In this document: positions 32,584 to 60,547 of the stretch, piece after piece
Layout of the letters: every line of letters starts with the position of its first letter
Position numbering within the stretch: position 1 is the first letter of the stretch
Source of the DNA: Candidatus Pacebacteria bacterium CG2_30_36_39
GTDB taxonomy: Bacteria > Patescibacteriota > Microgenomatia > UBA1400 > PJMF01
Reading direction: 5' to 3'
DNA: 64,000 nucleotides
NCBI GenBank assembly: GCA_001873435.1
Contig: MNZB01000003.1
Coordinates: 137,789 to 201,788 of the forward strand
Position numbers and translations under genes: made by a program
Notes under the pieces: model-generated
What the model saw: the letters and a program-made list of their open reading frames with translations, nothing else
Database searches by the model: none
What the model was told of the DNA's origin: nothing

Positions 32584-32584
32584 A

Positions 32585-37938: not shown

Positions 37939-39611
37939 ACCGTAGGGTGATCATAGACAGTAAATGCTTCCTCTGCCCATTGATCATCAATCGTGACTGG
38001 AATACCTAGCCATTCTAATGATGGACTAGTCTGAAAAACTTTTTCCATTTGATAGTTAGTTTCGCCACCAAACAAGTTTTGATAAAAAATGCTTGTTTGA
38101 GGATATCTATTTGGAATTCTAGAAATACTGGCCCAAGCTCTATTTGAGGACAGAATATAATAATCTGCATTTGCTAGTTCATAATTAATAGTTTCCCATT
38201 TTTGAGTTGAGTCTTGGTCAAATACTGAAATTGCTTTGGCTTGATAATTATTGATTTTTCCAGGGACATAAGCCAATGGCAAAGAATCATCCCAGTACTC
38301 ATAGAGAATCATTGAGTTGTTGGGAACATTTTGATAAATCCATCTAGTGGCTTCTGCCCTAGTAAATGGTTTGACAAAAATATTTGTAAACATCAAAGGC
38401 CAAAACATAATTATGATGATGAGTACGATGGCAGTGGTAAAAGGCTTCTTATTGCCAATAGTTTGTTGGATTCTAGCTGCTCCTAGTCCACCAAAAAAGG
38501 CAAAGAATGGGTAAAGCATGGCGAAGTAGCGTAGGTTTTGTGTGAATTGTGATCCCTGCCAACAAATAAATAGTATTATCCAGATTGAAAGTATTGATAA
38601 AAATGTTTTTGGTCTTTTAATAGTTAGCCAAAGCCAACCAATTAAAATTAACAAGCTTTGCCAAATGCCTATGCCAAAAAAGACCATGTTTTTTAGACTG
38701 AATAGAATTGGGGTTCTATCTAGCCATTGCATGGATGGTGGAAACCAAGTATCTGGTTTTGACCATGATTGGAGTGTTTGTAAGTTTTTTATAAAGGCTG
38801 GAGAAATTTGAGGATCTAGCCATGAATTATTGAAAAAATAATCTGGATTTAAAATTCTTAGGGTTACGTAACTAACTAAGCCAAAAAATAGTCCATTTCT
38901 TAATAACAACCAGATTGATTGCCATAGTTTTTTTTTATTTAAAACTGTTTGCCAAATAAAAACTGCAGCAAGTAAGGGTGCGTAATAAATGGCTGATGAT
39001 TTGCTGGCTAGTGCCATGCCCCAAAAAATTCCAGCTAGTTGAATAAAAAATATTTCAATAAAGATGTTATTTGATTTTTTAATAGCTGCAAAAATGCTTA
39101 ACAAACTAGCTAAGCAAAAAAAAGTAACAAAAGGATCAACTGTAAAGAAGTGAGAGAGTTGAATAGGTAGAACCATTAAGGCATAGATGAGAGTTGCCCA
39201 GAGAGAGGTTTTTTTTGGTAAATTAAATTTTTGAGTAAAATAGCGAGCCAACAAAAAGACAAGAACAATGGTGCCTGTTTCCAAGATAATATTTATTGTT
39301 CTGCCAAGCAAAACAAATGGTAAAAAGGCATCCTTTGTGTGAGTGAGTTGGGCGATCACTTTAATAACAGTTAATGGAAAACTGCCATAGACATAAAATT
39401 GATAGGAAGTATTTTTAACTCTCAGGGGTGAGTCTGAAGAGAAATATTCGTTTAGATTTTTGGGAATTTTTAGTTCTTGAGCAACCATGACCAAAAATCT
39501 TTCATCTGGATGCATGAAAGTGCCTTGATCCCAGTAAATTCCTAAAACTCTTATAAAAAAGCCTAGTAAGACCAAGGTGACTAGAGAAAGAAATGCTTTC
39601 ACGTATTTCAT
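37908..39611 (-). CDS. GT-C fold glycosyltransferase (ArnT/PMT-like, COG1807-type)
   Basis: HPDERF DE-motif in the first periplasmic loop, ~12 TM helices. 567 aa. Confidence 0.6.
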   Translation of the reverse strand: MKYVKAFLSLVTLVLLGFFIRVLGIYWDQGTFMHPDERFLVMVAQELKIPKNLNEYFSSDSPLRVKNTSYQFYVYGSFPLTVIKVIAQLTHTKDAFLPFVLLGRTINIILETGTIVLVFLLARYFTQKFNLPKKTSLWATLIYALMVLPIQLSHFFTVDPFVTFFCLASLLSIFAAIKKSNNIFIEIFFIQLAGIFWGMALASKSSAIYYAPLLAAVFIWQTVLNKKKLWQSIWLLLRNGLFFGLVSYVTLRILNPDYFFNNSWLDPQISPAFIKNLQTLQSWSKPDTWFPPSMQWLDRTPILFSLKNMVFFGIGIWQSLLILIGWLWLTIKRPKTFLSILSIWIILFICWQGSQFTQNLRYFAMLYPFFAFFGGLGAARIQQTIGNKKPFTTAIVLIIIIMFWPLMFTNIFVKPFTRAEATRWIYQNVPNNSMILYEYWDDSLPLAYVPGKINNYQAKAISVFDQDSTQKWETINYELANADYYILSSNRAWASISRIPNRYPQTSIFYQNLFGGETNYQMEKVFQTSPSLEWLGIPVTIDDQWAEEAFTVYDHPTVYIFRNKSKN

Positions 39612-39688
39612 TATAACGGAGTCTTTTTTTCCTAGTTACTGGGTTTTCAATCTCTCTTTTTACCTGATATTTTGGTATATTCGAGCGT

Positions 39689-41788
39689 ATGTTTTTAAAT
39701 GGTATTTACTTATTATTTTTAGCCACTTCTACATTACTTTTTCAAATTCTTGGTTTTGCTTTGCTAAATTTATTTTTGCCTAAAAAAAGAATGACAGCTG
39801 AAGTATGGGCTTGGGGGAGAATTGTCGGTTGGTTAGTTATTGGTTTGTTTATGTGGTTTTTGGGTCATTTGTTACCTTTTAATACTGATTTGGGTTTTTG
39901 GTTGATTTTTATATTTACGTATTTTGTTGTATTTATTAAAAATAAAGAGTTGAAGAGTGAATTAAAACAATTTGTTGCAAAGTTTAAAAAAGAAATAATT
40001 TTATTTGAACTAATATTTTTATTTGGTTTTATATTTCTTGGTTTGATGAGAACTTATAATCCTCAGGTTTTAGATTTAGAAAAATTTATGGATGGTGGTT
40101 TAATGCAGCGCTATTTAGTTTCCCCTACCCTTCCTATTCAGGATATGTGGCTGGCTGGTGAAAAAATTAATTATTATACTTTTGGTCATTTTTTAGGAAG
40201 CTTGATGCTGCGGTTTTGGAAGTTGCCAATGGAATGGGGCTACAATATTTTATTAGCTTATATTCTTGGCTTGATGTGTATAGAGTCTTTTGCTTTTGGC
40301 AGAATTTTATTAAAGCCTTTCATTGCTCAGGCTCCAAAAAAACATCTCAAAAGAAATGCTTTTTTACTAACTTTTATTGGTTTACTTTCAATGCTTTTGG
40401 TAAATTTTGCTGGCAATACCCACCCACTTTGGTATCTTATTAAGAATGGGAGTTTTGACAAATATTGGTATCCAGACGCAACTAGATTCATTGAAAGAAC
40501 TATCCACGAATTTCCAGCTTATAGTTATATAGTTAGCGATTTGCATGCTCATGTTTGGGCAATGCCAATCGTTATTTTGATGCTGTTTATTGCTTGGGAA
40601 TGGAAATTGAGTTTGGCTGAAGAAAAGAAATATCTTTCATTTCGTTCGAAACTTGGCGATTTTAAATCTTTAAAAATTGGTAGTTTATTAAATCAGTCAT
40701 ATTTTCGTGAATCTTTGGCTATGGGTGCTATTTTGGGAATTTTAGCAATGACTAGTACCTGGGATACCATGATCTATGGTTTGTTTTTAGCTGTACTTGG
40801 TGTGTTTTTGCTGTTGGAATTTACTGAAAAATTTTGGTTATTTGTTTTTTCTGCTATAGCAGTTGGTTTGGCAGCTATTGTTAGTGTTAGTTTATGGATG
40901 TTAAATTTTACCTCCATTTCTCAGGGAGTATTTTTGGCTTATGAGCATTCACCATTTTGGCAATTAATTGCTTTATGGGGAGGACATTTTTTATTTAGTT
41001 TATTGAGTTTAATATTTGTAGCAATGATTAAGTTTTCCCCAAAATTAAAACCTAGTTATATATTTTTATTGAGTATGGGTATTACAGCTTTTATTTTATT
41101 AGTTTTACCAGAATTGATTTATTTTAAAGATATATACCCCAATCATCCTAGGGCTAACACGATGTTTAAGTTTACTTTTCAAGCTTTTATTTTGATGAGT
41201 TTCTTAATCAGTTGGGGTTTTGGTATGTTGCTGCAAAAATCTACTAAATCTTTAATTTCTTTATTATTAAAAATCTTAGTTTTAATTTTTGTAGGAGGTT
41301 TTTTTCTTGTTGCTTTGTGTTTTCCTTTTTTGGGTTATCCGAGTTACTATGGTCACTTTAAAACTAATGATGGTTGGGATGGCTTGAGTTGGATGAAACG
41401 TGAAACTCCAGCCGATTATCAAGCTATTTTATGGTTAAGAAAAAATGTAGATCCTAATGCAATTATTTTGGAGGCTGTAGGAGAGAGTTATAGTAAAAAA
41501 GCTAGAGTATCTGTTTTTACTGGTATGCCTACAGTGCTTGGTTGGAGGGTTCATGAATGGTTATGGAGAGGTGGATTTGCAATACCTGGTCAAAGAACTA
41601 CTGAGGTAGCCAAAATTTTTGAACAGCCAAATTCTGTGGAGGCTTCAAATCTATTAAATCAATATAAAGTGAAATATATTTTTGTAGGTTCTCAAGAAAA
41701 AATAGTTTATAAATTAAATCATGATTTGTTAGTTGATTTGGGTAAAGTGATTTATTCTAAGGATGGAGTTTATATTATTGAAAGATAA
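39689..41788 (+). CDS. DUF2298 / Chlor_Arch_YYY family polytopic membrane protein (putative GT-C glycosyltransferase)
   Basis: MWLAGEKINYYTFGHFLG matches the family-defining YYY motif region. ~16 TM helices and a C-terminal soluble domain. Confidence 0.5.
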   Translation: MFLNGIYLLFLATSTLLFQILGFALLNLFLPKKRMTAEVWAWGRIVGWLVIGLFMWFLGHLLPFNTDLGFWLIFIFTYFVVFIKNKELKSELKQFVAKFKKEIILFELIFLFGFIFLGLMRTYNPQVLDLEKFMDGGLMQRYLVSPTLPIQDMWLAGEKINYYTFGHFLGSLMLRFWKLPMEWGYNILLAYILGLMCIESFAFGRILLKPFIAQAPKKHLKRNAFLLTFIGLLSMLLVNFAGNTHPLWYLIKNGSFDKYWYPDATRFIERTIHEFPAYSYIVSDLHAHVWAMPIVILMLFIAWEWKLSLAEEKKYLSFRSKLGDFKSLKIGSLLNQSYFRESLAMGAILGILAMTSTWDTMIYGLFLAVLGVFLLLEFTEKFWLFVFSAIAVGLAAIVSVSLWMLNFTSISQGVFLAYEHSPFWQLIALWGGHFLFSLLSLIFVAMIKFSPKLKPSYIFLLSMGITAFILLVLPELIYFKDIYPNHPRANTMFKFTFQAFILMSFLISWGFGMLLQKSTKSLISLLLKILVLIFVGGFFLVALCFPFLGYPSYYGHFKTNDGWDGLSWMKRETPADYQAILWLRKNVDPNAIILEAVGESYSKKARVSVFTGMPTVLGWRVHEWLWRGGFAIPGQRTTEVAKIFEQPNSVEASNLLNQYKVKYIFVGSQEKIVYKLNHDLLVDLGKVIYSKDGVYIIER

Positions 41789-41790
41789 TT

Positions 41791-42579
41791 ATGTTGATTG
41801 TTTTTACACTCATTCCAGTTTTAGCAATTTTGGCAGCATTATTTGTTTATAGGCACAATGGTAAAAAAGAGATTTTACGTTTTGATATGGTGCAGTTTTT
41901 TTATGCTTTTATCTTGATGCCCACTGTTTATGTGTGGTTTAAAGGTTTTTTATATTTATTATTAAAAACTGAATTAAATCAAAAAATTTCTCAACAAGAA
42001 TTGTTTTTTTACGATACTGCTTATTCTATTTTTTTCCTTTTTATCTTTGCTTTTGCTGTTATTCATTCTTTAACAAAAAGCTTTGAGCTAAAAATAAAAA
42101 AAGATCCTCTTTATGATTTGTTTGAGCATTCTGAGTACTATCATCTTTGGTTGTCTCACACCATTTTTTTTGTTGGTTCAATGATTCTATCTACTTCATT
42201 GGCTATTTTTAATATTTGGTTTGATTTGCCAATTGTATTTCCTAAAGCTATTTTCTATTTTATTCTTCTAACTACTCCATTTGTTGCTATGGCTGTTTTT
42301 AAAGTATTTAAAATTTCAGATTTTGGTGATTTTCGTTTTTTAAAATTAATGAAACTTTTTAATGGATTATTCTTTTTAATTCATGGAGTTTTGTTTATTG
42401 TTTTTGAGCCTGTTTTTATGAGTGAAAAACTTATGTATTGGTATTTGACTAATGTTTTTGGCTTCCTATCTTTGATCTCTATTTTTCATTCTCCAGAGCC
42501 AAAGCCAGATTCTTTGCGTAAGAGAATAGCTTATAAGGCTAAGGTTGTAGTTGGAAAATTAATTCATTCTAAAAAATAA
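41791..42579 (+). CDS. Polytopic membrane protein, unknown function
   Basis: ORF with 6-7 hydrophobic helices, 3-nt gap to the upstream gene. Confidence 0.4.
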   Translation: MLIVFTLIPVLAILAALFVYRHNGKKEILRFDMVQFFYAFILMPTVYVWFKGFLYLLLKTELNQKISQQELFFYDTAYSIFFLFIFAFAVIHSLTKSFELKIKKDPLYDLFEHSEYYHLWLSHTIFFVGSMILSTSLAIFNIWFDLPIVFPKAIFYFILLTTPFVAMAVFKVFKISDFGDFRFLKLMKLFNGLFFLIHGVLFIVFEPVFMSEKLMYWYLTNVFGFLSLISIFHSPEPKPDSLRKRIAYKAKVVVGKLIHSKK

Positions 42580-49611: not shown

Positions 49612-49685
49612 TGGGTGTACTACGAATCGAACGTAGGACCTCTGTCTTATCAGGACAGCGCTCTAACCATCTGAGCTATACACCC
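49612..49685 (-). tRNA. tRNA-Ile (anticodon GAU). CCA not encoded.
   Basis: rc gives GGGTGTATAGCTCAGATGGTTAGAGCGCTGTCCTGATAAGACAG...GGTTCGATTCGTAGTACACCCA. Anticodon loop CTGATAA. Confidence 0.8.
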
Positions 49686-50070: not shown

Positions 50071-50245
50071 GTCATCTGCTCTTTTTAAGGGCAGTGAGAC
50101 AGATGTTAACATCAGAATAAATTCTGAGCTAAACACGGTGGTGAAAAATGGCCTAGATATGGTGATCATAGGACTTGTTATTTCGAGAACATTACTGTTC
50201 TCGGGAGAAAGGAGGTCGTGATATCTCCTACCCGTTCTCCTTAGA

Positions 50246-51770
<1,525 letters not shown>

Positions 51771-52132
51771 TAAAAATTTATTTTTAAGTTTGAAACTGAT
51801 CTTTTTTTCTTCGTTATCTAAAAGATTTATTGTTTCTGGTTGATAATTTACCCCTGCTGGGATAAATCATCGATTTGGAATTAACGGATTCTTTTTTTAA
51901 AAAAAATCCATCAATGTAACATATTTCACCACCATGTTCATATCAGAATATGAATCCATGGTGTAAATTCTGTCTTAAGTCTATTAATTTGTTAATGTTC
52001 AACTTCTTTTTCACCGAAAAAAAGAAACAATCCCCGCTGGGGGCCGTCTCTTCTTTCCCGCGATTTGTGAATTCTATGTCATGTGACACGAATTGTGAAG
52101 TGGGAGATATTGTATCAAGTAATCATGAGATG

Positions 52133-53253: not shown

Positions 53254-54213
53254 CTAGACTAAGAAATTTTCTTTGGCAATCTCAGCAACTTTTCTTTTAT
53301 AAGCATCTGGATCTTTAGTGTAAAAACGAGGCAAAATCGGCTGAAACTTGGGATTTAAAACAACTGCTTTTGTAATATCCTGCCAAGATATTTTTCCATA
53401 ATAGAGTTCTTTTAAAGGAAAATTATTTTCTACCATAAACTTGGTAGTTTCCACAAAACCCTCAAAATAAACATAATCCTTAGTAAAACCTCCTGGCCTG
53501 CTAGTATCAGTGAGTCCTCTTTTCTTTTTGAAGGTTAAAGTAAAAGCTCGTTCTGCATCGCCTAGATAGTGATTTAAATATTGCCATACTTCTAAAAATG
53601 ATTCTTCCTGAGCTTTAATTGTGGCTAAAAAGTTTAGGGCAGCCATGTAGGTTAACTGCATTTTTTGTGGATACATAGCATGTAAGACAGCTAAACCTTC
53701 TTCAGTTTTTAGGTATGGAGCAAAACCGTAGTTCTTTTTTTTCTTAAACCAAGGTTGTTGTTCATAATTAATTCGACGTAGGGCATGAGTTCCAATTTCG
53801 TGGTAAAGCAAACTATCTAGGTCTTCTTTATAAATTGAACAAGGGAGTCTTAGTTTAATTTCGTTGGCATTGATAGCTGCTCTACTGACGAACTCTGCCG
53901 ACCAAATAATCTCAAATTTTCTTTCCAATCCATGAAGTTTGAGAAAATTTCTAATTTCACGAGAAACAATTTCTTCATTCAAAAGTTCGCCTCGTTGAGA
54001 CTGAAGCTCTTCAATAGAAAATTTGGTAAAAGTAGTTTCAATAATTTTTTCAGCTAAATCAATATATTTTGTATTGGGTAAACCATTTTGCACTAAATCT
54101 TCAGTAGCGAAAAAACGATAATAATTAAATTGAGGATTAAAGTTGGGACTAGCTAGAAAACGTTGTTTCTCTGCTAAAAAATTAGTTGGTTGTAGATCTG
54201 CAACGAGTCCCAT
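53254..54213 (-). CDS. DUF1704 / QEGLA-motif protein (putative HExxH zinc metallopeptidase)
   Basis: HEIGTHALR (HExxH) and TEEGLAV (QEGLA-like motif). 319 aa. Confidence 0.55.
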   Translation of the reverse strand: MGLVADLQPTNFLAEKQRFLASPNFNPQFNYYRFFATEDLVQNGLPNTKYIDLAEKIIETTFTKFSIEELQSQRGELLNEEIVSREIRNFLKLHGLERKFEIIWSAEFVSRAAINANEIKLRLPCSIYKEDLDSLLYHEIGTHALRRINYEQQPWFKKKKNYGFAPYLKTEEGLAVLHAMYPQKMQLTYMAALNFLATIKAQEESFLEVWQYLNHYLGDAERAFTLTFKKKRGLTDTSRPGGFTKDYVYFEGFVETTKFMVENNFPLKELYYGKISWQDITKAVVLNPKFQPILPRFYTKDPDAYKRKVAEIAKENFLV

Positions 54214-54230
54214 GTTTTTAACTTAGCTTT

Positions 54231-55511
54231 TTAAGCAGGTCTAATAACAAATCCTGCCAAATCATTCCTACCTATTTCAATTTTTTGAGTGCCTTTATTG
54301 AGTTTTTTGGAAACAACTGCTGAAGTAGTAATTACTTTATCTTTGAGTTTGAATTTCAATTCCACTACAGGGCGCTTACCTTCTCCAGCTACTTGTTGAT
54401 ACCACAAGAGATCATCGACATCTATTAAGCCTAGTTCTTTTGCTAGTTCACTAGAAATAATGGTGCGAAAACGACCAGTGTTAATAAGGGCTTTTTCATC
54501 GATTTTTTGTTTATCGTCACCATAGATAGTAACTGTTTCTTCAATTTCAATAATTGGAATTTCGCCGTCTTCCTTGATTTTACTGGCAAAATTTTCAGCA
54601 AACAGAGCTTGGGCAATTCTAACCCCATGTTCTGTGCTTAGAACATTGAGATCTCTAACTCTTTCCAAGCGTCTTCTGAGTCCCGCTTTATTTGCTACTT
54701 GAATAGATAAGCCAGGATAAGCATTGAGCTCTACTACCATAGGACCTTTTTCTTGATGGATAAAAATATCAACTCCGGTAAAAACTAGGCCAGCTGCTCT
54801 TGCCGCTCCTACCGCAGTCAAAAGAATTTCTTTCCAAAATGGAACGCGAATGCCATTGAGCTTAATTTTTGTATCGGGCATGTATTGAATTAATTGATTT
54901 TTATGAGCAGCTGCGTGAGTAGTAATGCCGGTAGCTATATCAACACCTACTCCCAAAGCTCCCTGGCTTTGATTGGCGCGTCCACCAGATTCTTCAGTTG
55001 GCAAACGTAAAAGAGCCATAACCGGAACGCTATTAAAGACGACCACTCTAACATCAGGAGTGCCTTTATAGCTATATTTTAGTAGTTTGGGGTGAATTGG
55101 AATACGTTCTTCAACAATGATGTTGTGATTTGAACCATGAGTACTATATTCTCCAGACAAAATGTCACCACAATGCAATTTAATATCATCGAGACTCCAA
55201 ACGTGACCTATAGCATCAGTCCAATGTTCTTTATCAGCATGTTGATTGCGGAAAGCAACTACTCCCTTACCAGCATGGCCATTAGTAGGTTTGATCACGA
55301 AGTCTTTTTCTAGTTTTTTCCAGTCAAATTCTTCAATGTCTTCTGAGGTTGCCAAGATACCATAAACTTGAGCGGTGGGAATATTTTGGCTTTGTAATAA
55401 TAATTTAGTAGCGTATTTTGAAATACAAAAAGATCGAGCTTTGCGAGAGTTGAGTGGGACATAAAGCTGGTTGCGAGCATTCATGCCCAGGATGTCATTG
55501 GCGAGTACCAT
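54231..55511 (-). CDS. RimK-like ATP-grasp ligase (alpha-L-glutamate-ligase-related) with ~110-aa C-terminal extra domain
   Basis: N-terminus MVLANDILGMNARNQLY typical of RimK-related ligases. ATP-grasp core (KPTNGHAGKGV, VVELNAYPGL). Internal start preferred. Confidence 0.6.
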   Translation of the reverse strand: MVLANDILGMNARNQLYVPLNSRKARSFCISKYATKLLLQSQNIPTAQVYGILATSEDIEEFDWKKLEKDFVIKPTNGHAGKGVVAFRNQHADKEHWTDAIGHVWSLDDIKLHCGDILSGEYSTHGSNHNIIVEERIPIHPKLLKYSYKGTPDVRVVVFNSVPVMALLRLPTEESGGRANQSQGALGVGVDIATGITTHAAAHKNQLIQYMPDTKIKLNGIRVPFWKEILLTAVGAARAAGLVFTGVDIFIHQEKGPMVVELNAYPGLSIQVANKAGLRRRLERVRDLNVLSTEHGVRIAQALFAENFASKIKEDGEIPIIEIEETVTIYGDDKQKIDEKALINTGRFRTIISSELAKELGLIDVDDLLWYQQVAGEGKRPVVELKFKLKDKVITTSAVVSKKLNKGTQKIEIGRNDLAGFVIRPA

Positions 55512-55515
55512 AAGC

Positions 55516-56448
55516 TTATTCCTCTTCTTCAATGATTGAAGTAAAGCGCACTCTCTCCAAGAGACGCAAACCGGTATATCTACCAATTAAAATATTTAGG
55601 CCAGCAACAGCTAATAAACTGAATTCTGGATAAAGTAAGACGAATTTTTGAATTGACTCTAGATTGATTAATAGTGCACAAAGAATAGCAACTAGAAGAG
55701 TTTCAAAAGTAATACTCAGGGCTTCTTTTTGACTACTGAATAGTTGAGTACTCATAAAGTTTTCTGTTAAGAGCATGATAATTAAAAGTGGAAAAATACT
55801 AATGCTTAGGAGTGAGCTAACATTAATCCAGGAAGCAAGTATTAGTAAACTGAGGATTAAGAAAGTTACTACCCAAAGCAACATGGCAGTTCTGGGTAGC
55901 AATGGTAGCTTGAAGTGTTTTACAGCGCTACGAGCAATGGTTGCGGCTGCTAAGACTGCTACAAATACTAAGACACCAGTTATGATTCCGGTTGAAACAA
56001 AAGCCACAGATAAGACGGCTGGAATGTAGACACCAAAGCCTTTTAGACCCACAACATGACGGGAAACAGCAATTAATGAGGCAATTAATGGAAATAATAA
56101 CATCAACACAATAATATTGGCTGGTAAGCCATTGGCAATGGCTCTACGAATGGCGTGTTGTAAAGGATTGTGCCAAGACAATCCTCCGATGGGATGTTCG
56201 TCTAAGTAGGCAGCTAATTTGCTTTTTTGCTTACCACCAGTTTCTGTAATGTCTTGATCTTTTTTTTCTTGAATTTTTTGGTCTAGTTCAGCCGATGAAG
56301 ATGCTAGATTTCCAGCATCGCTAGCTTCGATGGGGCTGGTTGCTTCTAATACCTGTTTTAGTGGTTCTACTGTTAAGGCTTTGGCTGGAAAGACAGCGAT
56401 AAGTCCGAATAGTAGAACAAATAGAAGGGTTAATCCGAGCTTTTTCAT
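55516..56448 (-). CDS. Seven-TM membrane protein with N-terminal signal peptide (7TM partner of the ATP-grasp cassette; no fused transglutaminase domain)
   Basis: Signal peptide, ~90-aa exported segment, then 7 hydrophobic helices, acidic C-terminus EEEE. Confidence 0.5.
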   Translation of the reverse strand: MKKLGLTLLFVLLFGLIAVFPAKALTVEPLKQVLEATSPIEASDAGNLASSSAELDQKIQEKKDQDITETGGKQKSKLAAYLDEHPIGGLSWHNPLQHAIRRAIANGLPANIIVLMLLFPLIASLIAVSRHVVGLKGFGVYIPAVLSVAFVSTGIITGVLVFVAVLAAATIARSAVKHFKLPLLPRTAMLLWVVTFLILSLLILASWINVSSLLSISIFPLLIIMLLTENFMSTQLFSSQKEALSITFETLLVAILCALLINLESIQKFVLLYPEFSLLAVAGLNILIGRYTGLRLLERVRFTSIIEEEE

Positions 56449-56501
56449 ATTGTTATTATACCAGGATTGATTGGTCAGTGCATTTTTTTACACAACCAAA
56501 C

Positions 56502-56858
56502 TTAGATTACTAATGTGACAAAACCTTGAACAAAACCGATTAAAATTGAAGCAAAGAGAATCGAGCCAAATCGACTCAAGTGATAGCCAAAAACGATCAT
56601 GTTGGAAATTTCGAAACCAGGTACTAAATAGGTAACTAACCACAACATTGCTACGTTGATTACGACGGAAAACAGACCAAAAGTAACAACATTGATAGGT
56701 AAAAATAGAAATTTAATAATTGGTTTAATGATTTTTTGTACAAAGACCATGACTAGACTGGCAATGAGCATAGTGGTCCAGTCTGAAAAACTAATGGTGG
56801 GAAGAAAATAAGAGAGAATCCAAAAAGTAACGCTGGTGTTGAGAAAAAGTCTAAGCAT
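56502..56858 (-). CDS. DUF360 / phage-holin-4-like small membrane protein
   Basis: LPINVVTFGLFSVVINVAMLWLVTYLVPGFEI matches the DUF360 core. Confidence 0.55.
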   Translation of the reverse strand: MLRLFLNTSVTFWILSYFLPTISFSDWTTMLIASLVMVFVQKIIKPIIKFLFLPINVVTFGLFSVVINVAMLWLVTYLVPGFEISNMIVFGYHLSRFGSILFASILIGFVQGFVTLVI

Positions 56859-56865
56859 TAATTGT

Positions 56866-57417
56866 TTATGTATATTTTCTTATTTCTTCAGCTGCTTTAC
56901 TTGCAACTTCTTTTATTAATTCATCACCTTCTAAGTTAAACAATTCCAAGATAAGTTTAGTTGCTTCTGGATCATTTTTCAAAAGTTCAATAAATTTATC
57001 CATTTCTTCACCGGTTGGCAAAATTGGTAAAACTTTTTCCCATAACAGAAATCCATGCTCAGTCATTCCAGAAGGAGTCCAATCAATACTAGCATCTGCA
57101 ACCCGAACAGTTTTATAAGTTATTTCTCTGCCATTGGGAAGTGTATTTTGTAAATGAGTTAGTTGTTTTTGAGAGGTAATAGAAGTTTGATCATCTTGGA
57201 AAACAACAATTTTATGTTTTAATTTTTTATCAGCAAAAAATCTAGACAAAATTCCATATAATTTATCTGCTAAAACATCACCTTCAAAACCTTCTTTAAA
57301 ACTTGTTCTTATTTCAACTAATTCGCTATGTTGCGGGTTAGATTCTTTTTCTTGGGCGGCATCAAACTCTTCAAAAGCTGATTCTAGCCCTGCCAATAGA
57401 TTATTTTCTTCATTCAT
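56866..57417 (-). CDS. Hypothetical acidic cytoplasmic protein (183 aa)
   Basis: ORF tightly packed between uvrC and the DUF360 gene. No recognisable motif. Confidence 0.35.
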   Translation of the reverse strand: MNEENNLLAGLESAFEEFDAAQEKESNPQHSELVEIRTSFKEGFEGDVLADKLYGILSRFFADKKLKHKIVVFQDDQTSITSQKQLTHLQNTLPNGREITYKTVRVADASIDWTPSGMTEHGFLLWEKVLPILPTGEEMDKFIELLKNDPEATKLILELFNLEGDELIKEVASKAAEEIRKYT

Positions 57418-57441: not shown

Positions 57442-58788
57442 CTATTTATTCAACAAAGCTCTAGTGTGTCTTTTACTCCATTGTTTTTTGGCAAAGCGAT
57501 GAGCTTCGTTTCTTAATTGTTGAATTAGTTTCAATGCTGGATGATCAGGTCCAAGATTAAGAATTTGATATTTTTCTTGTTTTTCTACTGGTAGTGGGAT
57601 AACTAATCTATCTGGATTTTTAGCAATACCTATTACTGGTATTTGCCATTGCCAAATTTGTAAAACTGCTTTGACTTGGCCTTTGCCACCATCTATAACC
57701 ACCAAGTCTGGCTTCCCCCACTCTGGATGATTTTGGCGACGAACCAAAGCTTCTTTCATCATATGATAATCATTAGGAGTATCAAGAGAATAGATATTAA
57801 ATAACTTATATTCACTTGGATTTGCTATTCCATTTTCTGTTACCACCATCGAAACAGCGGCATTTTTACCTTGAACATTGCTTACGTCATAACCTTCAAT
57901 TCTGGATAATTTTTTAGTTTTTGGAAATCTAGTATAAGTTGAAAGAATTTTTTTTAATTCAATAATACCTAATTCTTGTTGATTGAGGCCAAAGCCAGGT
58001 AAAACTAAATCCGGTTTAAGTTGATAGTTTTTTTGTGTAACTTCTTGGATGTATTGAATGCGTTGCTTAATTATCTGTGCCTGTTCATATTCTTGAGTCT
58101 CAGAAAATTGACGCATTTGTAGGGTTAGGTTTTTAAGTACTTCTCTCTTTTTGCCTTTAAGAAAAAGTTTTAAATTATTGATATTTTCTGCGTAGTTTTC
58201 TGGAGAAATTAAGTCAAGACAAACCCCTGGACATTGATCTAAATGGTAGTAAAAACAAGCCTTTTTTTGATCAGTAATTGGTTGATTGCACCAAGGAAAT
58301 ATTTTTCGAGCAATTTTTAAAACTTCATTAACCTTATAACTACTTTGGAATGGCCCAAGAATAGTTCCTTTGGGATTTTCGGTAATCAAATCTGTTTTAC
58401 GCTTTTTTAAGACTTTAGGAAACTTTTCATTAGTAATTAATAAGTAGATGGGAGATTTGTCGTCTTTGAGCCTGATATTAAAAAAGGGTTGATGGGTATG
58501 AATTAGTTCTGCTTCAATTAATAGAGCCTCTAACTCACTATCTAAAACTTGATATCTTACTTCAGTTGCAGTTGTGACGAGTTTTTTAATTCGTGAAGAA
58601 AGCTGTGAATATTGAGTGTAACTAGTGAGGCGATTTTTTAGATTTTTGGCTTTACCAACGTAAAGAATCTTAGCGTTTTTGTCTAAGAACGAGTACACTC
58701 CCGGTTCCAAGGGCCAAGAGGATCGCTGCTCCGCCCAAGGCAAAGATGGTGTAAGGATGGGCAATGGTTTGGACGAAGTTCGGTGCAT
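57442..58788 (-). CDS. uvrC: Excinuclease ABC subunit C (short form lacking C-terminal HhH). Start uncertain, may be further downstream.
   Basis: GIY-YIG N-terminus (PGVYSFLDKNAKILYVGKAKNLKNRL), UvrC homology region, RNase H-like endonuclease domain. Track ORF begins with TTG at 58800 and overlaps the upstream gene by ~130 nt. Confidence 0.75.
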   Translation of the reverse strand: MHRTSSKPLPILTPSLPWAEQRSSWPLEPGVYSFLDKNAKILYVGKAKNLKNRLTSYTQYSQLSSRIKKLVTTATEVRYQVLDSELEALLIEAELIHTHQPFFNIRLKDDKSPIYLLITNEKFPKVLKKRKTDLITENPKGTILGPFQSSYKVNEVLKIARKIFPWCNQPITDQKKACFYYHLDQCPGVCLDLISPENYAENINNLKLFLKGKKREVLKNLTLQMRQFSETQEYEQAQIIKQRIQYIQEVTQKNYQLKPDLVLPGFGLNQQELGIIELKKILSTYTRFPKTKKLSRIEGYDVSNVQGKNAAVSMVVTENGIANPSEYKLFNIYSLDTPNDYHMMKEALVRRQNHPEWGKPDLVVIDGGKGQVKAVLQIWQWQIPVIGIAKNPDRLVIPLPVEKQEKYQILNLGPDHPALKLIQQLRNEAHRFAKKQWSKRHTRALLNK

Positions 58789-60547
58789 TGGTGATAGCAA
58801 AGTCTTTTGTTACGACACTTTCACCATTCATGTTGAAAGTGAAATGGAGAGTGTCCTTGGTCGGCAGTGCTCCATGTGTATTATAAACAAAGAGTTGCAA
58901 ACTTAAGGTTTCAAAAGGTAGTAGAGCTTTTATGGCTGTGTCACCAAAAACTCTAACTCCAGAATTATTTGAAGCTAAATCAAAATTTAGGTTATACCAA
59001 GCAGCTCCTGATTTGTTTTTAATTTTAAGATCATAAAAACCAGGCATTCCAATCCAGGTGTTTTTTTGTGGTTCCAAAGTAACTTCAAAATTTGGTTCTT
59101 GTTCTGGAAAGCTTTTGCCAAAGTTTACTTCTAGGGTTTTTTCTTTTTGCTGTTTGTCTGTTTTATATGATCCAGCTGGGTATGGCAAAGTACTTGATTC
59201 TCCATTAATGGCTAGAACAATATGATTAAGATCAAAGTGATTAAAATAATCAACGCCACCAGTAGTATTTTCCCAGGTGGGGTCAATTGGTTGCCAGTTT
59301 TGTTTTTCCTCATTCCAGTATTCTGGCCAGGCATGCAAAATATCATTGCCTAAACTTAGTGGTCGCAAACGACTGTTTTCTGCATAGCCATAACCAGTAA
59401 TTACTCTAGCAGGGATTTTGTTTATTCTAGCTAGGGTTACAAATAAATCGGAGAATTCTTGACAGGCCGCTTGATCTGGTTTTTCTAAAGCCTTAATTGC
59501 TCCTTTGCGCTCCAAATTATCAATAGAATCTATTTGTGCATATTCCAATTGACTAGTAACAAAGTCATAAACTTCTTTTGGACTAGGGTGTTCAGCGGCA
59601 ATTTTCTGTAAGTCAGCATTGTCTGTTTCCCAAAATGGTTGTTTGGCCAAATTAAAAGCTTGGGGATAAGCAATGGGAACCAAAGGATTTTGCTCTAAAG
59701 TTAAAAGTGCTTGAGCTTTAACTTTAACCGCTTGAGCAGTGTTGCCTTGCATATAAAAAGTAGCGATCCAGTTACCATCTTTATCTAGTTTCATTTCGGT
59801 TGGCTCTGGTTCAATGGATGAATAATTCATTCTTTGGAAAGGAGTATCTGGTGGTAAAGCTGTTTGCAATAGAATGGGCTGAGAATTATTGTTTTCTAAA
59901 AAGTAAGTAAAGTTCAAATCATAAATTTGTTCATAACCAAAAAGAGCAGAGACTCCTTGGTCACCCAAATCTCCGAACACCATTTGAACGCCTTTTTCAG
60001 TTAATTTTTGCACATAGTTAGTAGCTGGAGTTACTCTAGTTGCTGAACCAAAGCGAATTGGTGTATTGAGCACAACTTCAATATGTGCATATTTATGAGG
60101 ATCAGCTTGTTTGGGAACTGCTACTTCCAAAACACTGCCGTTGGCTTGAGCAAGATCTGGGTTGGTGTAACTAATGGTAAAAGTTCTTGTTTTGCCTTCA
60201 CCAACCAATTTATCTGGAAAAGTAATACCAATGTTAGTTTGGTTGTCTACCTGAGTAACTTCTGGATCAAGATTTTTGCCATTTTCCATTACTCTCACAC
60301 CAGAAATACTAGTAGAGCTAGTGCGTAGGCCATGCTTAGTAATGTAATAGGTTGGGGTAAGGTTTTTGATGGTAAATGTATGCTCAACGTAAGTAGAGCC
60401 ATTTTCTTGGACGTTGTAAGTACTTTTTAGGGAGTTTTCAAAAGCTTGCTCTGCTTCTATTTGCTCTTGTTGAGCAAGGACTACAGAATTAAAGCCAAAA
60501 AGGCTGATTATGCTAAAAAATAATCCAAGTAATAACTTACGCATCAT
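58670..60547 (-). CDS. Secreted transglutaminase-like cysteine protease/cross-linking enzyme with C-terminal TM anchor
   Basis: Signal peptide. TGase core motifs with intact triad (C in ACQEFSDLFVTLARINKIPARVITGYGY; H in HAWPEYW; D in IDPTWEN). C-terminal hydrophobic helix + RQKR. Confidence 0.6.
   Translation of the reverse strand: MMRKLLLGLFFSIISLFGFNSVVLAQQEQIEAEQAFENSLKSTYNVQENGSTYVEHTFTIKNLTPTYYITKHGLRTSSTSISGVRVMENGKNLDPEVTQVDNQTNIGITFPDKLVGEGKTRTFTISYTNPDLAQANGSVLEVAVPKQADPHKYAHIEVVLNTPIRFGSATRVTPATNYVQKLTEKGVQMVFGDLGDQGVSALFGYEQIYDLNFTYFLENNNSQPILLQTALPPDTPFQRMNYSSIEPEPTEMKLDKDGNWIATFYMQGNTAQAVKVKAQALLTLEQNPLVPIAYPQAFNLAKQPFWETDNADLQKIAAEHPSPKEVYDFVTSQLEYAQIDSIDNLERKGAIKALEKPDQAACQEFSDLFVTLARINKIPARVITGYGYAENSRLRPLSLGNDILHAWPEYWNEEKQNWQPIDPTWENTTGGVDYFNHFDLNHIVLAINGESSTLPYPAGSYKTDKQQKEKTLEVNFGKSFPEQEPNFEVTLEPQKNTWIGMPGFYDLKIKNKSGAAWYNLNFDLASNNSGVRVFGDTAIKALLPFETLSLQLFVYNTHGALPTKDTLHFTFNMNGESVVTKDFAITNAPNFVQTIAHPYTIFALGGAAILLALGTGSVLVLRQKR

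What the first reader, a model, noticed from the sequence alone, without database searches (positions are those of the whole stretch)
53254..56448. 7TM / RimK-like ATP-grasp / QEGLA (DUF1704) three-gene cassette, uncharacterised, in a reduced genome
Seen: three consecutive minus-strand genes with 5-18 nt gaps. The first is a signal-peptide 7TM protein. The second is a RimK-related ATP-grasp ligase carrying an extra ~110-aa C-terminal domain. The third is a protein with HEIGTH (HExxH) and a TEEGLAV motif. Established: this trio recurs in bacterial genomes and has only been discussed computationally, as a putative peptide or protein gamma-glutamyl or peptide-tag ligation system with an associated metallopeptidase. 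No substrate is known. Inference: retention of this cassette in a streamlined genome implies an important envelope-associated modification reaction. Possibilities include poly-Glu tagging of a membrane or surface substrate, with the HExxH protein as the trimming peptidase.
Basis: partly seen in the sequence, partly recalled or inferred. Interest (0 to 1): 0.75.

Follow-up and report, generated by a model that had tools for sequence, protein, structure and literature searches.

The report
Glutamate-tail ligase, membrane partner, MATCAP trimmer
Three adjacent genes in a tiny-genome bacterium (Candidatus Pacebacteria) look like a variant of the Pseudomonas Rlo/Rim poly-glutamate "add and trim" system, in which a close relative of the human tubulin-trimming enzyme MATCAP has replaced the usual protease and the membrane partner itself ends in a run of glutamates that may be the target.

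Summary
Three minus-strand genes sit 4 and 17 nt apart. They are a signal-peptide 7TM protein (PF14402), an RloC/TIGR02291-like ATP-grasp ligase with a 113-aa C-terminal domain, and a MATCAP/DUF1704 metallopeptidase.

New points:
- The extra ligase domain is a RimB/RloA-type retropepsin whose catalytic Asp is Asn (NTGR instead of DTGA).
- Across 80 species-level loci, the 7TM gene adjoins the ligase wherever upstream sequence is held (79 of 80).
- Loci with a dead retropepsin domain carry MATCAP, or in 3 cases a stand-alone active retropepsin. The 17 loci with an active fused retropepsin never carry MATCAP. So each locus has one active "eraser".
- The peptidase matches human MATCAP1 at E=2e-36, with identical HEIGTH (HExxxH, not HExxH) and TEEGLA motifs.
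- The 7TM protein ends in ...IIEEEE on the inferred cytoplasmic side. This Glu end is enriched in MATCAP-type loci only.

The cassette is a new variant of the Rlo/Rim alpha-glutamylation systems, which now have genetics and biochemistry (2025), so "only computational" is outdated. The substrate is still unproven. The 7TM tail as acceptor is a testable lead, not a result.

The parts
55516..56448 (-). RloB-like 7TM membrane protein without the inactive-transglutaminase domain (310 aa). It has a signal peptide (residues 1-24), a variable linker, a conserved outer segment (residues 57-86, nt 56191-56280), 7 predicted TM helices, and a juxtamembrane motif GLRLLERVRF (nt 55543-55572).
   Evidence: PF14402 at 1e-29. 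NF052267 RloB aligns only its positions 314-507 of 508. AF2 model pLDDT is 72.8, and 78-91 in the membrane part. It lies next to the ligase in every related locus that holds upstream sequence (79 of 80). N-out/C-in topology is inferred from the signal peptide and the positive-inside rule, read from the sequence.
55519..55530 (-). Four terminal Glu codons (…SIIEEEE-stop) of the 7TM protein, on the inferred cytoplasmic side. Candidate acceptor or docking tail.
   Evidence: It is the only ORF of at least 100 aa in the window that ends in EE or an acidic run. 48 of 59 MATCAP-type loci end in E, 32 of them in two or more, with different linkers (IIEEEE, NSQEEE, PGLEE, DDQSE, IDPEE). Tails are basic in the active-retropepsin clade and not acidic-ended in gammaproteobacterial RloB or the three retropepsin-7TM fusions read.
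54573..55511 (-). ATP-grasp ligase domain (residues 1-313) of the RloC / TIGR02291 / ATPgrasp_ST type. ATP and Mg motifs are intact: FVIKPTNG at 55278-55301, GVDIF at 54762-54776, VELNAYPG at 54711-54734.
   Evidence: PF14397 at 1.6e-59. TIGR02291 at 2.9e-72, below its cut-off. K74, E134, E135, D248, E261 and N263 are invariant in 27 homologues. The Mg-site motif is present in 77 of 82 locus copies.
54234..54572 (-). C-terminal retropepsin-like (RimB/RloA-type) domain, residues 314-426, catalytically dead. It has N344-T-G-R (nt 54471-54482) where active relatives have D-T-G-A. The retropepsin GR motif IGRNDL is retained (nt 54258-54275).
   Evidence: phmmer from this domain reaches the DTGA-bearing domains of distant ligases at 1e-9 to 1e-16. 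Those domains, and stand-alone copies, match PF05618 (L026 ORF 37.9 bits against a cut-off of 27; L071 at 1e-5). The joint profile hits solved PF05618 proteins 9g59, 2pma and 9g58 at 2.7e-15 to 1.8e-13, and Ddi1 at 6.5e-5. The catalytic position reads N in 53, K in 8, H in 3 and D in 19 aligned domains. RloA D48N is used as an inactive control (PMC12239564).
53254..54213 (-). MATCAP/DUF1704-family metallocarboxypeptidase (319 aa, no signal peptide). HEIGTH (HExxxH) is at nt 53785-53802 and TEEGLA at nt 53689-53706.
   Evidence: PF08014 at 1.3e-29. Human MATCAP1 structures 7z5g and 7z6s match at E=2.4e-36 over residues 5-283, with identical HEIGTH and TEEGLA. HExxxH is found in 57 of 58 and [TV]EEG[LMI]A in 56 of 58 locus orthologues.
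56455..56463 (-). Extended -10 box TGGTATAAT, ending 6 nt before the 7TM ATG. Probable operon promoter giving a leaderless or near-leaderless mRNA.
   Evidence: An exact TATAAT ends 5-9 nt upstream of the 7TM start in 48 of 63 loci of this clade, against 0.8% of background 25-nt windows. No experimental transcription start site is available.

Best explanation
The cassette is a Patescibacterial variant of the Rlo/Rim alpha-poly-glutamylation modules, organised as a writer, a membrane partner and an eraser.

- Writer (inferred): the cytoplasmic RloC-type ATP-grasp ligase adds amino acids, most likely alpha-linked glutamates, to a carboxyl end.
- Membrane partner: the ligase works at the membrane with the RloB-type 7TM protein. 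Obligatory pairing is shown by gene adjacency and by domain fusions elsewhere.
- Dead domain: the RimB/RloA-type retropepsin fused to the ligase has lost its catalytic Asp (shown). It is probably kept for a non-catalytic role (inferred). That role could be dimerising or activating the ligase, as RimB activates RimK, or holding an acidic tail.
- Eraser: the cytoplasmic MATCAP-family metallocarboxypeptidase has taken over trimming. Displacement is shown by the complementary gene pattern. Glu-trimming activity is inferred from the eukaryotic enzymes.
- Acceptor: the most specific candidate is the cytoplasmic C-terminal tail of the 7TM protein itself, which ends in Glu in this clade. This would parallel RpsF-EE for RimK and the acidic tubulin tail for TTL/TTLL and MATCAP. 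Free poly-Glu remains possible.

The three genes are transcribed from their own promoter at the 7TM start codon.
For: Families:
- All three family assignments pass Pfam thresholds.
- The ligase's best NCBIfam match is TIGR02291, the alpha-L-glutamate ligase-like family to which RloC belongs. A tblastn search with it retrieves Legionella and Aeromonas loci with the rloABC-like gene order.

Linkage:
- 7TM and ligase are adjacent in all loci with upstream sequence.
- Fusions tie the three activities together. One is ligase+retropepsin (these loci). Another is signal peptide+retropepsin+7TM (P0284 and seven others).

One active eraser per locus:
- Dead fused domain with MATCAP present: 56 loci.
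- Dead fused domain with a stand-alone DTGA retropepsin instead of MATCAP: 3 loci (L016, L026, L058), at three separate tree positions.
- Active fused domain with no MATCAP: 17 loci.
- Active fused domain plus MATCAP: 0 loci.

Chemistry by analogy:
- RloA and RimB cleave poly-Glu, and RloA D48N is used as an inactive control (PMC12239564).
- RimB binds RimK and stimulates its ATPase and poly-alpha-Glu synthesis, and active RimB-RimK hybrids exist (PMC11957791).
- MATCAP/TMCP remove C-terminal Tyr/Glu and shorten poly-Glu chains (PMC10499314).
- The window protein shares its metal and catalytic motifs with human MATCAP1 at E=2e-36.

Tail:
- Terminal-Glu enrichment in the 7TM tail is specific to MATCAP-type loci: 48 of 59 against 4 of 21 (3 of those 4 are truncated loci).
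- Background is about 8% E-ended and about 1% EE-ended ORFs.
- 72 of the 120 nearest non-redundant homologues end in three or more E.

Selection and transcription:
- Median identity to the window is 64% for the ligase and 59% for the 7TM, against 53% for UvrC and 52.5% for MnmA in the same genomes.
- The -10 box is conserved.
Against: - No biochemical activity has been shown for any RloC-type ligase. The amino acid added and the acceptor are unknown.
- The E-tail is not universal. The HTGR subclade ends in ER/KR, several loci with extra RimK-like ligases end in non-acidic residues, and the active-retropepsin clade has basic tails although it keeps the same 7TM-ligase pair. The tail therefore cannot be the general acceptor of the family.
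- In P. aeruginosa, and in the retropepsin-7TM fusions, the protease is extracytoplasmic. That argues for an exported product rather than a cytoplasmic tail.
- All correlations come from related genomes. Apart from the three MATCAP-to-retropepsin swaps, they may reflect few evolutionary events.
- The window's own C-terminal domain does not reach any Pfam threshold. The dead-clade-only profile finds only Ddi1 at E=0.14. Its AF2 model was poor (pLDDT 46.6). The fold assignment therefore rests on a transitive sequence link.
Confidence: 0.55

Rival explanations
1. Export model, as suggested by the Pseudomonas genetics. The ligase makes free or carrier-bound poly-alpha-glutamate (or another acidic peptide). 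The 7TM protein moves it across the membrane to the cell surface. The MATCAP-like enzyme only limits chain length or recycles product in the cytoplasm. The Glu tail of the 7TM protein is a docking or autoinhibitory element, not the acceptor.
For: - Deleting rloB or rloC suppresses the lethality of losing the secreted RloA proteases, so the RloB+RloC product is harmful outside the cytoplasm (PMC12239564).
- Some lineages fuse an active retropepsin, behind a signal peptide, to the outer side of the 7TM domain.
- RimK with RimB makes free poly-Glu up to about 28-36 residues.
- The 7TM-ligase pair is kept in clades whose 7TM tail is basic.
Against: - In this clade all peptidase domains lack signal peptides.
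- This model does not explain why terminal Glu on the 7TM tail tracks with the carboxypeptidase-type eraser.
Confidence: 0.27
2. Single-residue cycle resembling tubulin tyrosination. The ligase adds one non-Glu residue (for example an aromatic one) to the ...EE end, as TTL does on alpha-tubulin. The MATCAP homologue removes it.
For: - MATCAP1's defining activity is removal of the C-terminal Tyr after ...GEE, and it has active-site motifs identical to the window protein.
- NCBI names one plasmid-borne relative a 'tyrosine/phenylalanine carboxypeptidase domain-containing protein' (H15).
- The genome-encoded EEEE end resembles detyrosinated tubulin.
Against: - The ligase belongs to the RimK-related alpha-Glu ligase group, not the TTL family. 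No PF03133 hit was returned for it at E up to 0.01.
- The displaced partner proteases RimB and RloA are poly-Glu specific.
- TMCPs also deglutamylate.
Confidence: 0.08
3. Ordinary RimK-type ribosomal protein S6 modification, D-Ala-D-Ala ligase, or a surface-polysaccharide 'sugar-transfer associated' ligase, with the 7TM and MATCAP genes as unrelated neighbours.
For: There are weak sub-threshold hits to RimK, MptN, Ddl and GSH synthetase models. The Pfam name of PF14397 mentions sugar transfer.
Against: - All those models score far below their cut-offs: NF007764 19 against 331, TIGR00768 50 against 143, Ddl 26 against 243.
- No glycosyltransferase lies next to the cassette. The glycosylation cluster at 31-42 kb is at least 11 kb away.
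- The trio stays together when the flanks change, and its composition co-varies.
Confidence: 0.05

Closest known systems
RloABC operon of Pseudomonas aeruginosa (Lormand et al., mBio 2025, PMC12239564)
   Same: - The same ligase family (TIGR02291/PF14397) and the same 7TM family (PF14402) are encoded side by side.
- A RimB/RloA-type retropepsin module is associated with them.
- An antagonistic writer/eraser logic is inferred from suppressor genetics.
- The juxtamembrane motif G-x-R-x-x-E-x-x-R-F after TM7 is shared.
   Different: - No inactive-transglutaminase ectodomain on the 7TM protein.
- No separate secreted protease. The retropepsin is fused to the C-terminus of the ligase, has no signal peptide, and has Asn in place of the catalytic Asp.
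- A MATCAP-type metallopeptidase gene is added.
- The 7TM tail ends in Glu, whereas the two gammaproteobacterial RloB tails I read (Legionella, Aeromonas) end in ...KARS and ...GKDK.
- The window scores are below NCBI's cut-offs for RloB (77 against 900) and TIGR02291 (243 against 314).
RimK-RimB (and the RimBK hybrid) ribosomal protein S6 poly-glutamylation system (Little et al., JBC 2025, PMC11957791)
   Same: - A cytoplasmic ATP-grasp Glu ligase is physically coupled to a retropepsin-like protein.
- Fusion of the two is precedented.
- RimB has a second, activating role on the ligase, which could explain why a dead domain is retained.
- The acceptor is a protein C-terminus ending in Glu-Glu.
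   Different: - The ligase is not in the RimK family proper (TIGR00768 50 against 143).
- Domain order is reversed. RimBK has the protease N-terminal; here it is C-terminal.
- The protease is dead here.
- The system is membrane-linked through a 7TM partner.
- The eraser is a metallocarboxypeptidase, not an aspartic endopeptidase.
Eukaryotic MATCAP1/TMCP1 and MATCAP2/TMCP2 with TTL/TTLL ligases (the tubulin tail code)
   Same: - The peptidase is a clear homologue: E=2e-36 to solved human MATCAP1, with identical HEIGTH and TEEGLA.
- The overall logic is shared: an ATP-grasp ligase extends an acidic C-terminal tail and a MATCAP-type carboxypeptidase shortens it.
   Different: - There is no tubulin.
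- The bacterial protein matches only the catalytic domain (residues 141-426 of the 471-residue human chain 7z6s_C).
- The partner ligase is RimK-related, not TTL-family.
- Activity and substrate are untested.
Proteobacterial 'flavohemoglobin expression-modulating QEGLA motif protein' (TIGR02421)
   Same: Same Pfam family (PF08014), with an HExxxH metal motif and an EGLA motif.
   Different: - The window protein scores 103 bits against the 339-bit equivalog cut-off and carries TEEGLA, not QEGLA.
- The sampled proteobacterial members are longer (426-663 aa).
- They are stand-alone, or flanked by N-formylglutamate amidohydrolase and a GSH-synthetase-like ATP-grasp, with no 7TM partner.

Membership tests
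Rlo system (RloA/RloB/RloC) | RloC-type ATP-grasp ligase (PF14397 / TIGR02291) | tested here: inconclusive
   PF14397 scores 201.8 bits against a cut-off of 31.4, which is met. TIGR02291 is the best NCBIfam hit but scores 243.3 against a cut-off of 314.2, which is not met. The protein is 34-37% identical by tblastn to the ligase-encoding stretches of the Legionella and Aeromonas rlo-like loci.
Rlo system (RloA/RloB/RloC) | RloB: 7TM domain fused to an N-terminal inactive transglutaminase domain | tested here: not met
   The 7TM part is present (PF14402, 104 bits). NF052267 aligns only its positions 314-507 of 508 and scores 77 against 900. Residues 1-112 are a signal peptide, a linker and a short conserved segment with no TGase hit.
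Rlo system (RloA/RloB/RloC) | Secreted, catalytically active retropepsin (RloA) with a D-T/S-G motif and a signal peptide | tested here: not met
   There is no separate gene. The homologous domain is fused to the cytoplasmic ligase and reads N-T-G-R.
Rlo system (RloA/RloB/RloC) | Ligase and 7TM genes adjacent in one operon | tested here: met
   The gap is 4 nt in the window. The two genes are adjacent in all related loci with upstream sequence.
Rlo system (RloA/RloB/RloC) | Role in hypo-osmotic tolerance, cell shape and antibiotic tolerance | not testable with these tools
   This is a phenotype known only for P. aeruginosa (PMC12239564). The organism here is uncultured.
RimK/RimB S6 glutamylation | RimK-family ligase (TIGR00768 / NF007764) | tested here: not met
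   TIGR00768 scores 49.6 against 143.4. NF007764 scores 18.9 against 331. Solved RimK 7qyr matches only at E=3.5e-3 over 43 residues.
RimK/RimB S6 glutamylation | Acceptor is ribosomal protein S6 ending in Glu-Glu | not tested
   I did not look for rpsF in the window, and the rest of the genome was not available to me.
Retropepsin-like PF05618 (RimB/RloA) | Sequence membership (Pfam gathering score) | tested here: inconclusive
   The window domain has no PF05618 hit, only gag-asp_proteas at 14.9 bits and Asp_protease_2 at 14.0 bits, both below cut-off. Homology is supported transitively. phmmer reaches DTGA domains at 1e-9 to 1e-16. Those reach PF05618 at 37.9 bits against a cut-off of 27, and solved 9g59, 2pma and 9g58 at 2.7e-15 to 1.8e-13. 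The dead-clade-only profile is not significant against the PDB.
Retropepsin-like PF05618 (RimB/RloA) | Catalytic Asp in a D-T/S-G-A motif | tested here: not met
   The window has N344-T-G-R. Among aligned domains from the loci the position reads N in 53, K in 8, H in 3 and D in 19. The D-to-N change is used as an inactive control in RloA.
Retropepsin-like PF05618 (RimB/RloA) | Retropepsin fold and dimer | tested here: inconclusive
   The AF2 model of the isolated domain is mostly beta but has pLDDT 46.6, so it is not usable for fold search.
MATCAP / TMCP (PF08014) | Sequence membership | tested here: met
   PF08014 scores 103.8 bits against a cut-off of 27. Human MATCAP1 chains 7z5g and 7z6s match at E=2.4e-36 and 1.8e-35 over residues 5-283.
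MATCAP / TMCP (PF08014) | HExxxH metal/catalytic motif plus a downstream Glu ligand (E281 and E316 in human TMCP1) | tested here: met
   HEIGTH and TEEGLA align residue for residue with the human motifs. E281A and E316A inactivate TMCP1. The motifs are conserved in 56-57 of 58 orthologues.
MATCAP / TMCP (PF08014) | Carboxypeptidase activity on acidic C-terminal tails (Tyr/Glu removal, deglutamylation) | not testable with these tools
   This needs an enzyme assay.
TIGR02421 QEGLA equivalog | Score above the equivalog cut-off, with a QEGLA motif | tested here: not met
   The score is 102.7 against a cut-off of 338.65. The motif is TEEGLA.

The most novel reading that the evidence does not exclude
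A bacterial membrane protein carries its own "tail code". The cytoplasmic Glu-ended C-terminus of the 7TM protein would be reversibly extended by the neighbouring ATP-grasp ligase and shortened by a bona fide MATCAP homologue. The dead retropepsin domain, with its active site rebuilt as N-T-G-R, would serve as a reader or clamp for the acidic tail. That would make this a prokaryotic counterpart, and possibly a forerunner, of the tubulin tyrosination/glutamylation cycle. It would also name the long-sought substrate class of the Rlo family. In genomes that keep extra RimK-like ligases, the first Glu residues would be added enzymatically instead of being encoded.
Probability: 0.2. Interest if true: 0.85.

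Novelty: new variant of a known kind. Interest (0 to 1): 0.62.

Why it matters
**The open question.** The Rlo operon affects osmotic survival, cell shape, biofilm formation and beta-lactam tolerance in P. aeruginosa, yet its substrate and the roles of RloB and RloC are unknown.

**What this variant adds.** It supplies three natural experiments.
- A metallocarboxypeptidase has replaced the aspartic endopeptidase. This argues that the thing removed is at a C-terminus.
- The retropepsin domain is kept after losing catalysis. This argues for a second, non-proteolytic role, as reported for RimB on RimK.
- The 7TM partner has a genome-encoded Glu end. This gives a concrete candidate acceptor that can be tested with a peptide and a mass spectrometer.

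**Link to eukaryotes.** The cassette places a close homologue of the human tubulin detyrosinase/deglutamylase in an operon with a Glu-type ligase in bacteria. This is relevant to where the tubulin-code enzymes came from.

**Why it is probably important to the cell.** The ligase and 7TM protein are more conserved than DNA-repair and tRNA-modification genes in these reduced genomes.

Tried and rejected
- **AF2 of the isolated C-terminal domain** (27-sequence alignment) gave pLDDT 46.6. I did not use it for fold search.
- **Dead-clade-only profile against the PDB.** It gave only Ddi1 at E=0.14, plus chance hits. The fold call therefore rests on the transitive link through the active domains.
- **Pfam on the isolated domain.** Only sub-threshold aspartyl-protease hits were found.
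- **Sequence search of the 7TM protein against the PDB.** No hit.
- **Iyer et al. 2009** (PMC3268129), the likely source of the computational prediction, is not held. What I recall of it is not used as evidence.
- **Full-text search for the Pfam/TIGRFAM identifiers.** It returned nothing. Searches combining MATCAP with bacterial terms turned up no paper on bacterial MATCAP operons in this library.
- **Generic promoter/terminator scan.** It was not enriched over shuffles and missed the extended -10 box.
- **TGase-uvrC-PF04020 synteny.** I considered it as part of the system and rejected it. It is lost in L063-L067 while the trio persists.
- **Bona fide RimK, Ddl, GSH synthetase and cyanophycin synthetase** were rejected on score.
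- **E-tail as universal acceptor** was rejected. Basic tails occur in the DTGA clade, and non-acidic ends occur in gammaproteobacterial RloB and the three retropepsin-7TM fusions read.

Full report
**1. What is there**

Region 53254-56448 holds three minus-strand ORFs.

- The first (55516-56448, 310 aa) starts with a signal-peptide-like segment and matches PF14402 7TM_transglut (1e-29).
  - NCBIfam's RloB model aligns only with its C-terminal 7TM half (positions 314-507 of 508; 77 bits against a 900 cut-off). The inactive-transglutaminase ectodomain of RloB is therefore absent.
- The second is listed from a TTG at 55586. An identical 426-aa database protein, and all homologues, begin at the ATG at 55511.
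  - It matches PF14397 ATPgrasp_ST (1.6e-59) and, best among NCBIfam models, TIGR02291 "alpha-L-glutamate ligase-like" (243 bits, below the 314 cut-off).
  - RimK, MptN, Ddl, GSH synthetase and cyanophycin synthetase models all score far below threshold.
- The third (53254-54213, 319 aa) matches PF08014 MATCAP (1.3e-29) and TIGR02421 QEGLA (103 bits against 339).
- The gaps are 4 and 17 nt.
- P0001 names the source as a Candidatus Pacebacteria MAG (CG10_big_fil_rev).

**2. The peptidase is a true MATCAP homologue**

- Against all PDB sequences, the only hits are human MATCAP1 (KIAA0895L): 7z5g and 7z5h at E=2.4e-36, and 7z6s. They cover residues 5-283, with HEIGTH and TEEGLA identical in both proteins.
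- HEIGTH is HExxxH, the unusual spacing noted for TMCPs, not HExxH.
- In human TMCP1, E281A and E316A abolish activity. Both Glu residues are present here and in 56-57 of 58 orthologues.
- TMCP1 and TMCP2 remove C-terminal Tyr/Glu from acidic tubulin tails and shorten poly-Glu chains.
- The bacterial protein has no signal peptide.

**3. The extra C-terminal domain of the ligase is a dead retropepsin**

- On its own, the domain gives only sub-threshold aspartyl-protease hits. Its isolated AF2 model is unusable (pLDDT 46.6).
- A scan of one genome per species returned 80 loci with full-length relatives of 38-86% identity.
- In the most distant group, L068-L084 (record titles mostly Shapirobacteria), the same domain reads AK[VI]DTGA[FY]RSS. 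The window domain finds these by phmmer at 1e-9 to 1e-16.
- These domains match PF05618, the RimB/RloA family:
  - L071 at 1e-5.
  - A stand-alone copy in L026 at 37.9 bits, against a cut-off of 27.
- A profile of dead and active domains plus two gammaproteobacterial RloA sequences hits solved PF05618 proteins 9g59, 2pma and 9g58 at 2.7e-15 to 1.8e-13, and Ddi1 retropepsin domains at 6.5e-5.
- In the window and its clade, the catalytic Asp is Asn (53 aligned domains), Lys (8) or His (3), and the following Ala is an invariant Arg, giving N-T-G-R. The retropepsin "GR" motif (IGRNDL) is retained.
- RloA D48N is used as an inactive control in the P. aeruginosa study, and RimB D31E is inactive.
- Three close metagenomic homologues retain D-T-G-R. 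They may be intermediates.

**4. One active eraser per locus**

I annotated the 80 loci with the window proteins as queries.

- The 7TM gene immediately precedes the ligase in every locus that holds upstream sequence (79 of 80).
- 56 loci with a dead fused domain have the MATCAP gene right after the ligase.
- Three truncated loci (L039, L061, L062) are uninformative, and L078 lacks upstream sequence.
- Three dead-domain loci (L016, L026, L058) lack MATCAP.
  - They have a stand-alone DTGA retropepsin ORF in its place.
  - L026 and L058 were read and have no signal peptide.
  - In a rough NJ tree of the ligase domain, the three fall in different places.
- All 17 loci with an active fused domain lack MATCAP.
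- No locus combines an active fused domain with MATCAP.
- I read this as non-orthologous displacement of a poly-Glu-specific aspartic endopeptidase by a MATCAP-type carboxypeptidase, with the old domain kept as a pseudo-enzyme.
- Caveat: the main split is probably a single evolutionary event.

**5. Further architecture links**

- An exhaustive search of 1.84 billion representative proteins with the window domain found only 93 hits at E of 0.001 or better.
- Eight of these hits, when scanned with Pfam, combine aspartyl-protease/PF05618 hits with 7TM_transglut.
  - The three sequences read (P0284, P0298, P0313) start with a hydrophobic signal-like segment and carry DTGA.
  - This is effectively an RloA-RloB fusion.
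- Together with the ligase-retropepsin fusion, this ties all three activities into one system.
- Many loci carry one to three additional RimK-family ligases after MATCAP (PF08443 up to 3e-30 in L071). The window genome has none.

**6. The 7TM tail**

- The window protein ends ...GLRLLERVRFTSIIEEEE.
- With a signal peptide, 7 hydrophobic segments and Arg/Lys-rich loops at 134-139 and 173-188 and in the tail, the C-terminus should be cytoplasmic. This is inferred from the sequence and from the helices in the AF2 model.
- It is the only one of 68 ORFs of at least 100 aa in the window that ends in EE or an acidic run.
- Counts by locus type:

| Set | Ends in E | Ends in two or more E |
|---|---|---|
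| 59 MATCAP-type loci | 48 | 32 |
| 21 loci without MATCAP | 4 (3 of them truncated loci) | 3 |
| Background ORFs in the same loci | about 8% | about 1% |

- The preceding linkers are unrelated between subclades: IIEEEE, NSQEEE, PGLEE, DDQSE, IDPEE.
- 72 of the 120 nearest non-redundant homologues end in three or more E.
- Tails in the active-retropepsin clade are basic (AIRKK).
- Legionella and Aeromonas RloB end in ...KARS and ...GKDK.
- The three retropepsin-7TM fusions read do not end in an acidic residue.
- Within MATCAP-type loci, 41 of 44 without extra RimK-like ligases end in E, against 7 of 15 with them.
- The pattern fits an acceptor, as RpsF-EE is for RimK, or a docking handle. It is not universal: the HTGR subclade ends in ER or KR.

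**7. Selection and transcription**

- Median identity to the window across the syntenic loci:

| Protein | Median identity |
|---|---|
| Ligase | 64% |
| 7TM | 59% |
| UvrC | 53% |
| MnmA | 52.5% |
| MATCAP | 41% |

- The trio persists with entirely different flanks in L066 and L067, which were annotated by Pfam, and without the uvrC synteny in L063-L067.
- TGGTATAAT ends 6 nt before the 7TM ATG.
- An exact TATAAT ends 5-9 nt upstream of that ATG in 48 of 63 loci, against 0.8% of background windows. This suggests a dedicated promoter and a leaderless mRNA.

**8. Comparison with what is known**

*Rlo (PMC12239564).*
- RloA proteases are secreted retropepsins that cleave stretches of eight or more Glu.
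- Loss of all three is lethal in low-salt medium and is suppressed by deleting rloB or rloC.
- The substrate is unknown.

*Rim (PMC11957791).*
- RimK poly-glutamylates S6 and makes free poly-alpha-Glu.
- RimB trims it and also stimulates RimK.
- An active RimB-RimK hybrid exists with the opposite domain order.

*The window cassette.*
- It shares the ligase and 7TM families with Rlo, and the cytoplasmic location and fusion logic with Rim.
- It differs from both in the dead protease domain, the MATCAP eraser, the missing TGase ectodomain and the Glu-ended tail.
- Proteobacterial QEGLA proteins sampled from plasmids and chromids are stand-alone. In Aminobacter, one is flanked by an N-formylglutamate amidohydrolase and a GSH-synthetase-like ATP-grasp, without a 7TM partner.
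- I found no paper in the held library describing a bacterial MATCAP operon. The 2009 computational survey could not be read.

**9. Verdict**

The supporting literature has moved beyond computation.
- The linkage is more likely alpha than gamma.
- The envelope location of the substrate is unproven.
- The cassette is a new variant of a known kind of system.
- Its value lies in the natural experiments it contains and in the concrete, cheap tests they suggest. The central test is whether the 7TM tail carries a +129 Da ladder.

Noticed in passing
window 56455-56463 (minus strand), and the equivalent positions in L004-L067: An extended -10 box, TGGTATAAT, ends 6 nt before the 7TM start codon. An exact TATAAT ends 5-9 nt upstream of that ATG in 48 of 63 related loci, against 0.8% of background windows. 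This suggests a conserved promoter and a leaderless mRNA with no Shine-Dalgarno sequence.
   Followed up: partly
window 58670-60547 (minus strand): A 625-aa protein with a signal peptide, a Transglut_core domain (7e-16) and a C-terminal membrane anchor. Its Cys-His-Asp triad looks intact (AACQEF / LHAWPEYW / IDPTW). It sits between uvrA and uvrC in all syntenic loci (L004-L064). This is intriguing because RloB carries an inactive TGase domain, but the gene is absent from the loci with different flanks.
   Followed up: partly
window 56502-56858 and 56866-57417 (minus strand): A PF04020 '4-TMS holin' family membrane protein (118 aa) lies directly upstream of the cassette in 58 loci but appears to be outside its promoter. 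Next to it is a 183-aa acidic protein with no family, found in only a few close relatives.
   Followed up: partly
L004, L010, L028, L034, L047, L049, L051, L053, L071 and others (downstream of the ligase or MATCAP gene): One to three additional RimK-family ATP-grasp genes follow the cassette in many relatives. The window genome has lost them. Loci without them almost always encode the terminal Glu on the 7TM tail (41 of 44, against 7 of 15). This hints at an initiator/elongator division of labour.
   Followed up: partly
P0049, P0054, P0070 (alignment A1, columns ~353-356): Three close ligase homologues read D-T-G-R in the otherwise dead domain. The Asp is kept but the Ala is already Arg. They may be intermediates in the inactivation.
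   Followed up: no
window 50245-51773 and 49612-49685 (minus strand): A complete 16S rRNA gene is followed by a tRNA, but there is no 23S rRNA anywhere in the 64-kb window. The rRNA genes therefore appear unlinked.
   Followed up: no
window ~31300-41800: A low-GC stretch (0.27-0.33 against about 0.36) is a surface-glycosylation cluster. It holds two PMT-like mannosyltransferases, GT2 and GT4 glycosyltransferases, an amine-oxidase-like flavoprotein and a DUF2298 membrane protein.
   Followed up: partly
L067 9934-10605 and 3838-5655: In one relative with different flanks, a Peptidase_S51 gene (the cyanophycinase/PepE family) lies two genes downstream of MATCAP, and a large serine recombinase lies upstream.
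   Followed up: no
L089 (Aminobacter aminovorans plasmid pAA02) 3938-7682: A proteobacterial QEGLA/MATCAP-family gene is flanked by an N-formylglutamate amidohydrolase and a GSH-synthetase-like ATP-grasp. This is a different MATCAP plus ATP-grasp pairing, without a 7TM partner.
   Followed up: no
[not shown]
   Followed up: partly
record titles of L005-L084: Many of the MAG records carrying this cassette are titled 'uncultured Pseudomonadales' or 'Gammaproteobacteria', and single ones TM6, Vitreimonas, Methanoperedens or Verrucomicrobiota. Their gene content and synteny match the Pacebacteria-type loci, so the titles look like mislabels or bin contamination.
   Followed up: no
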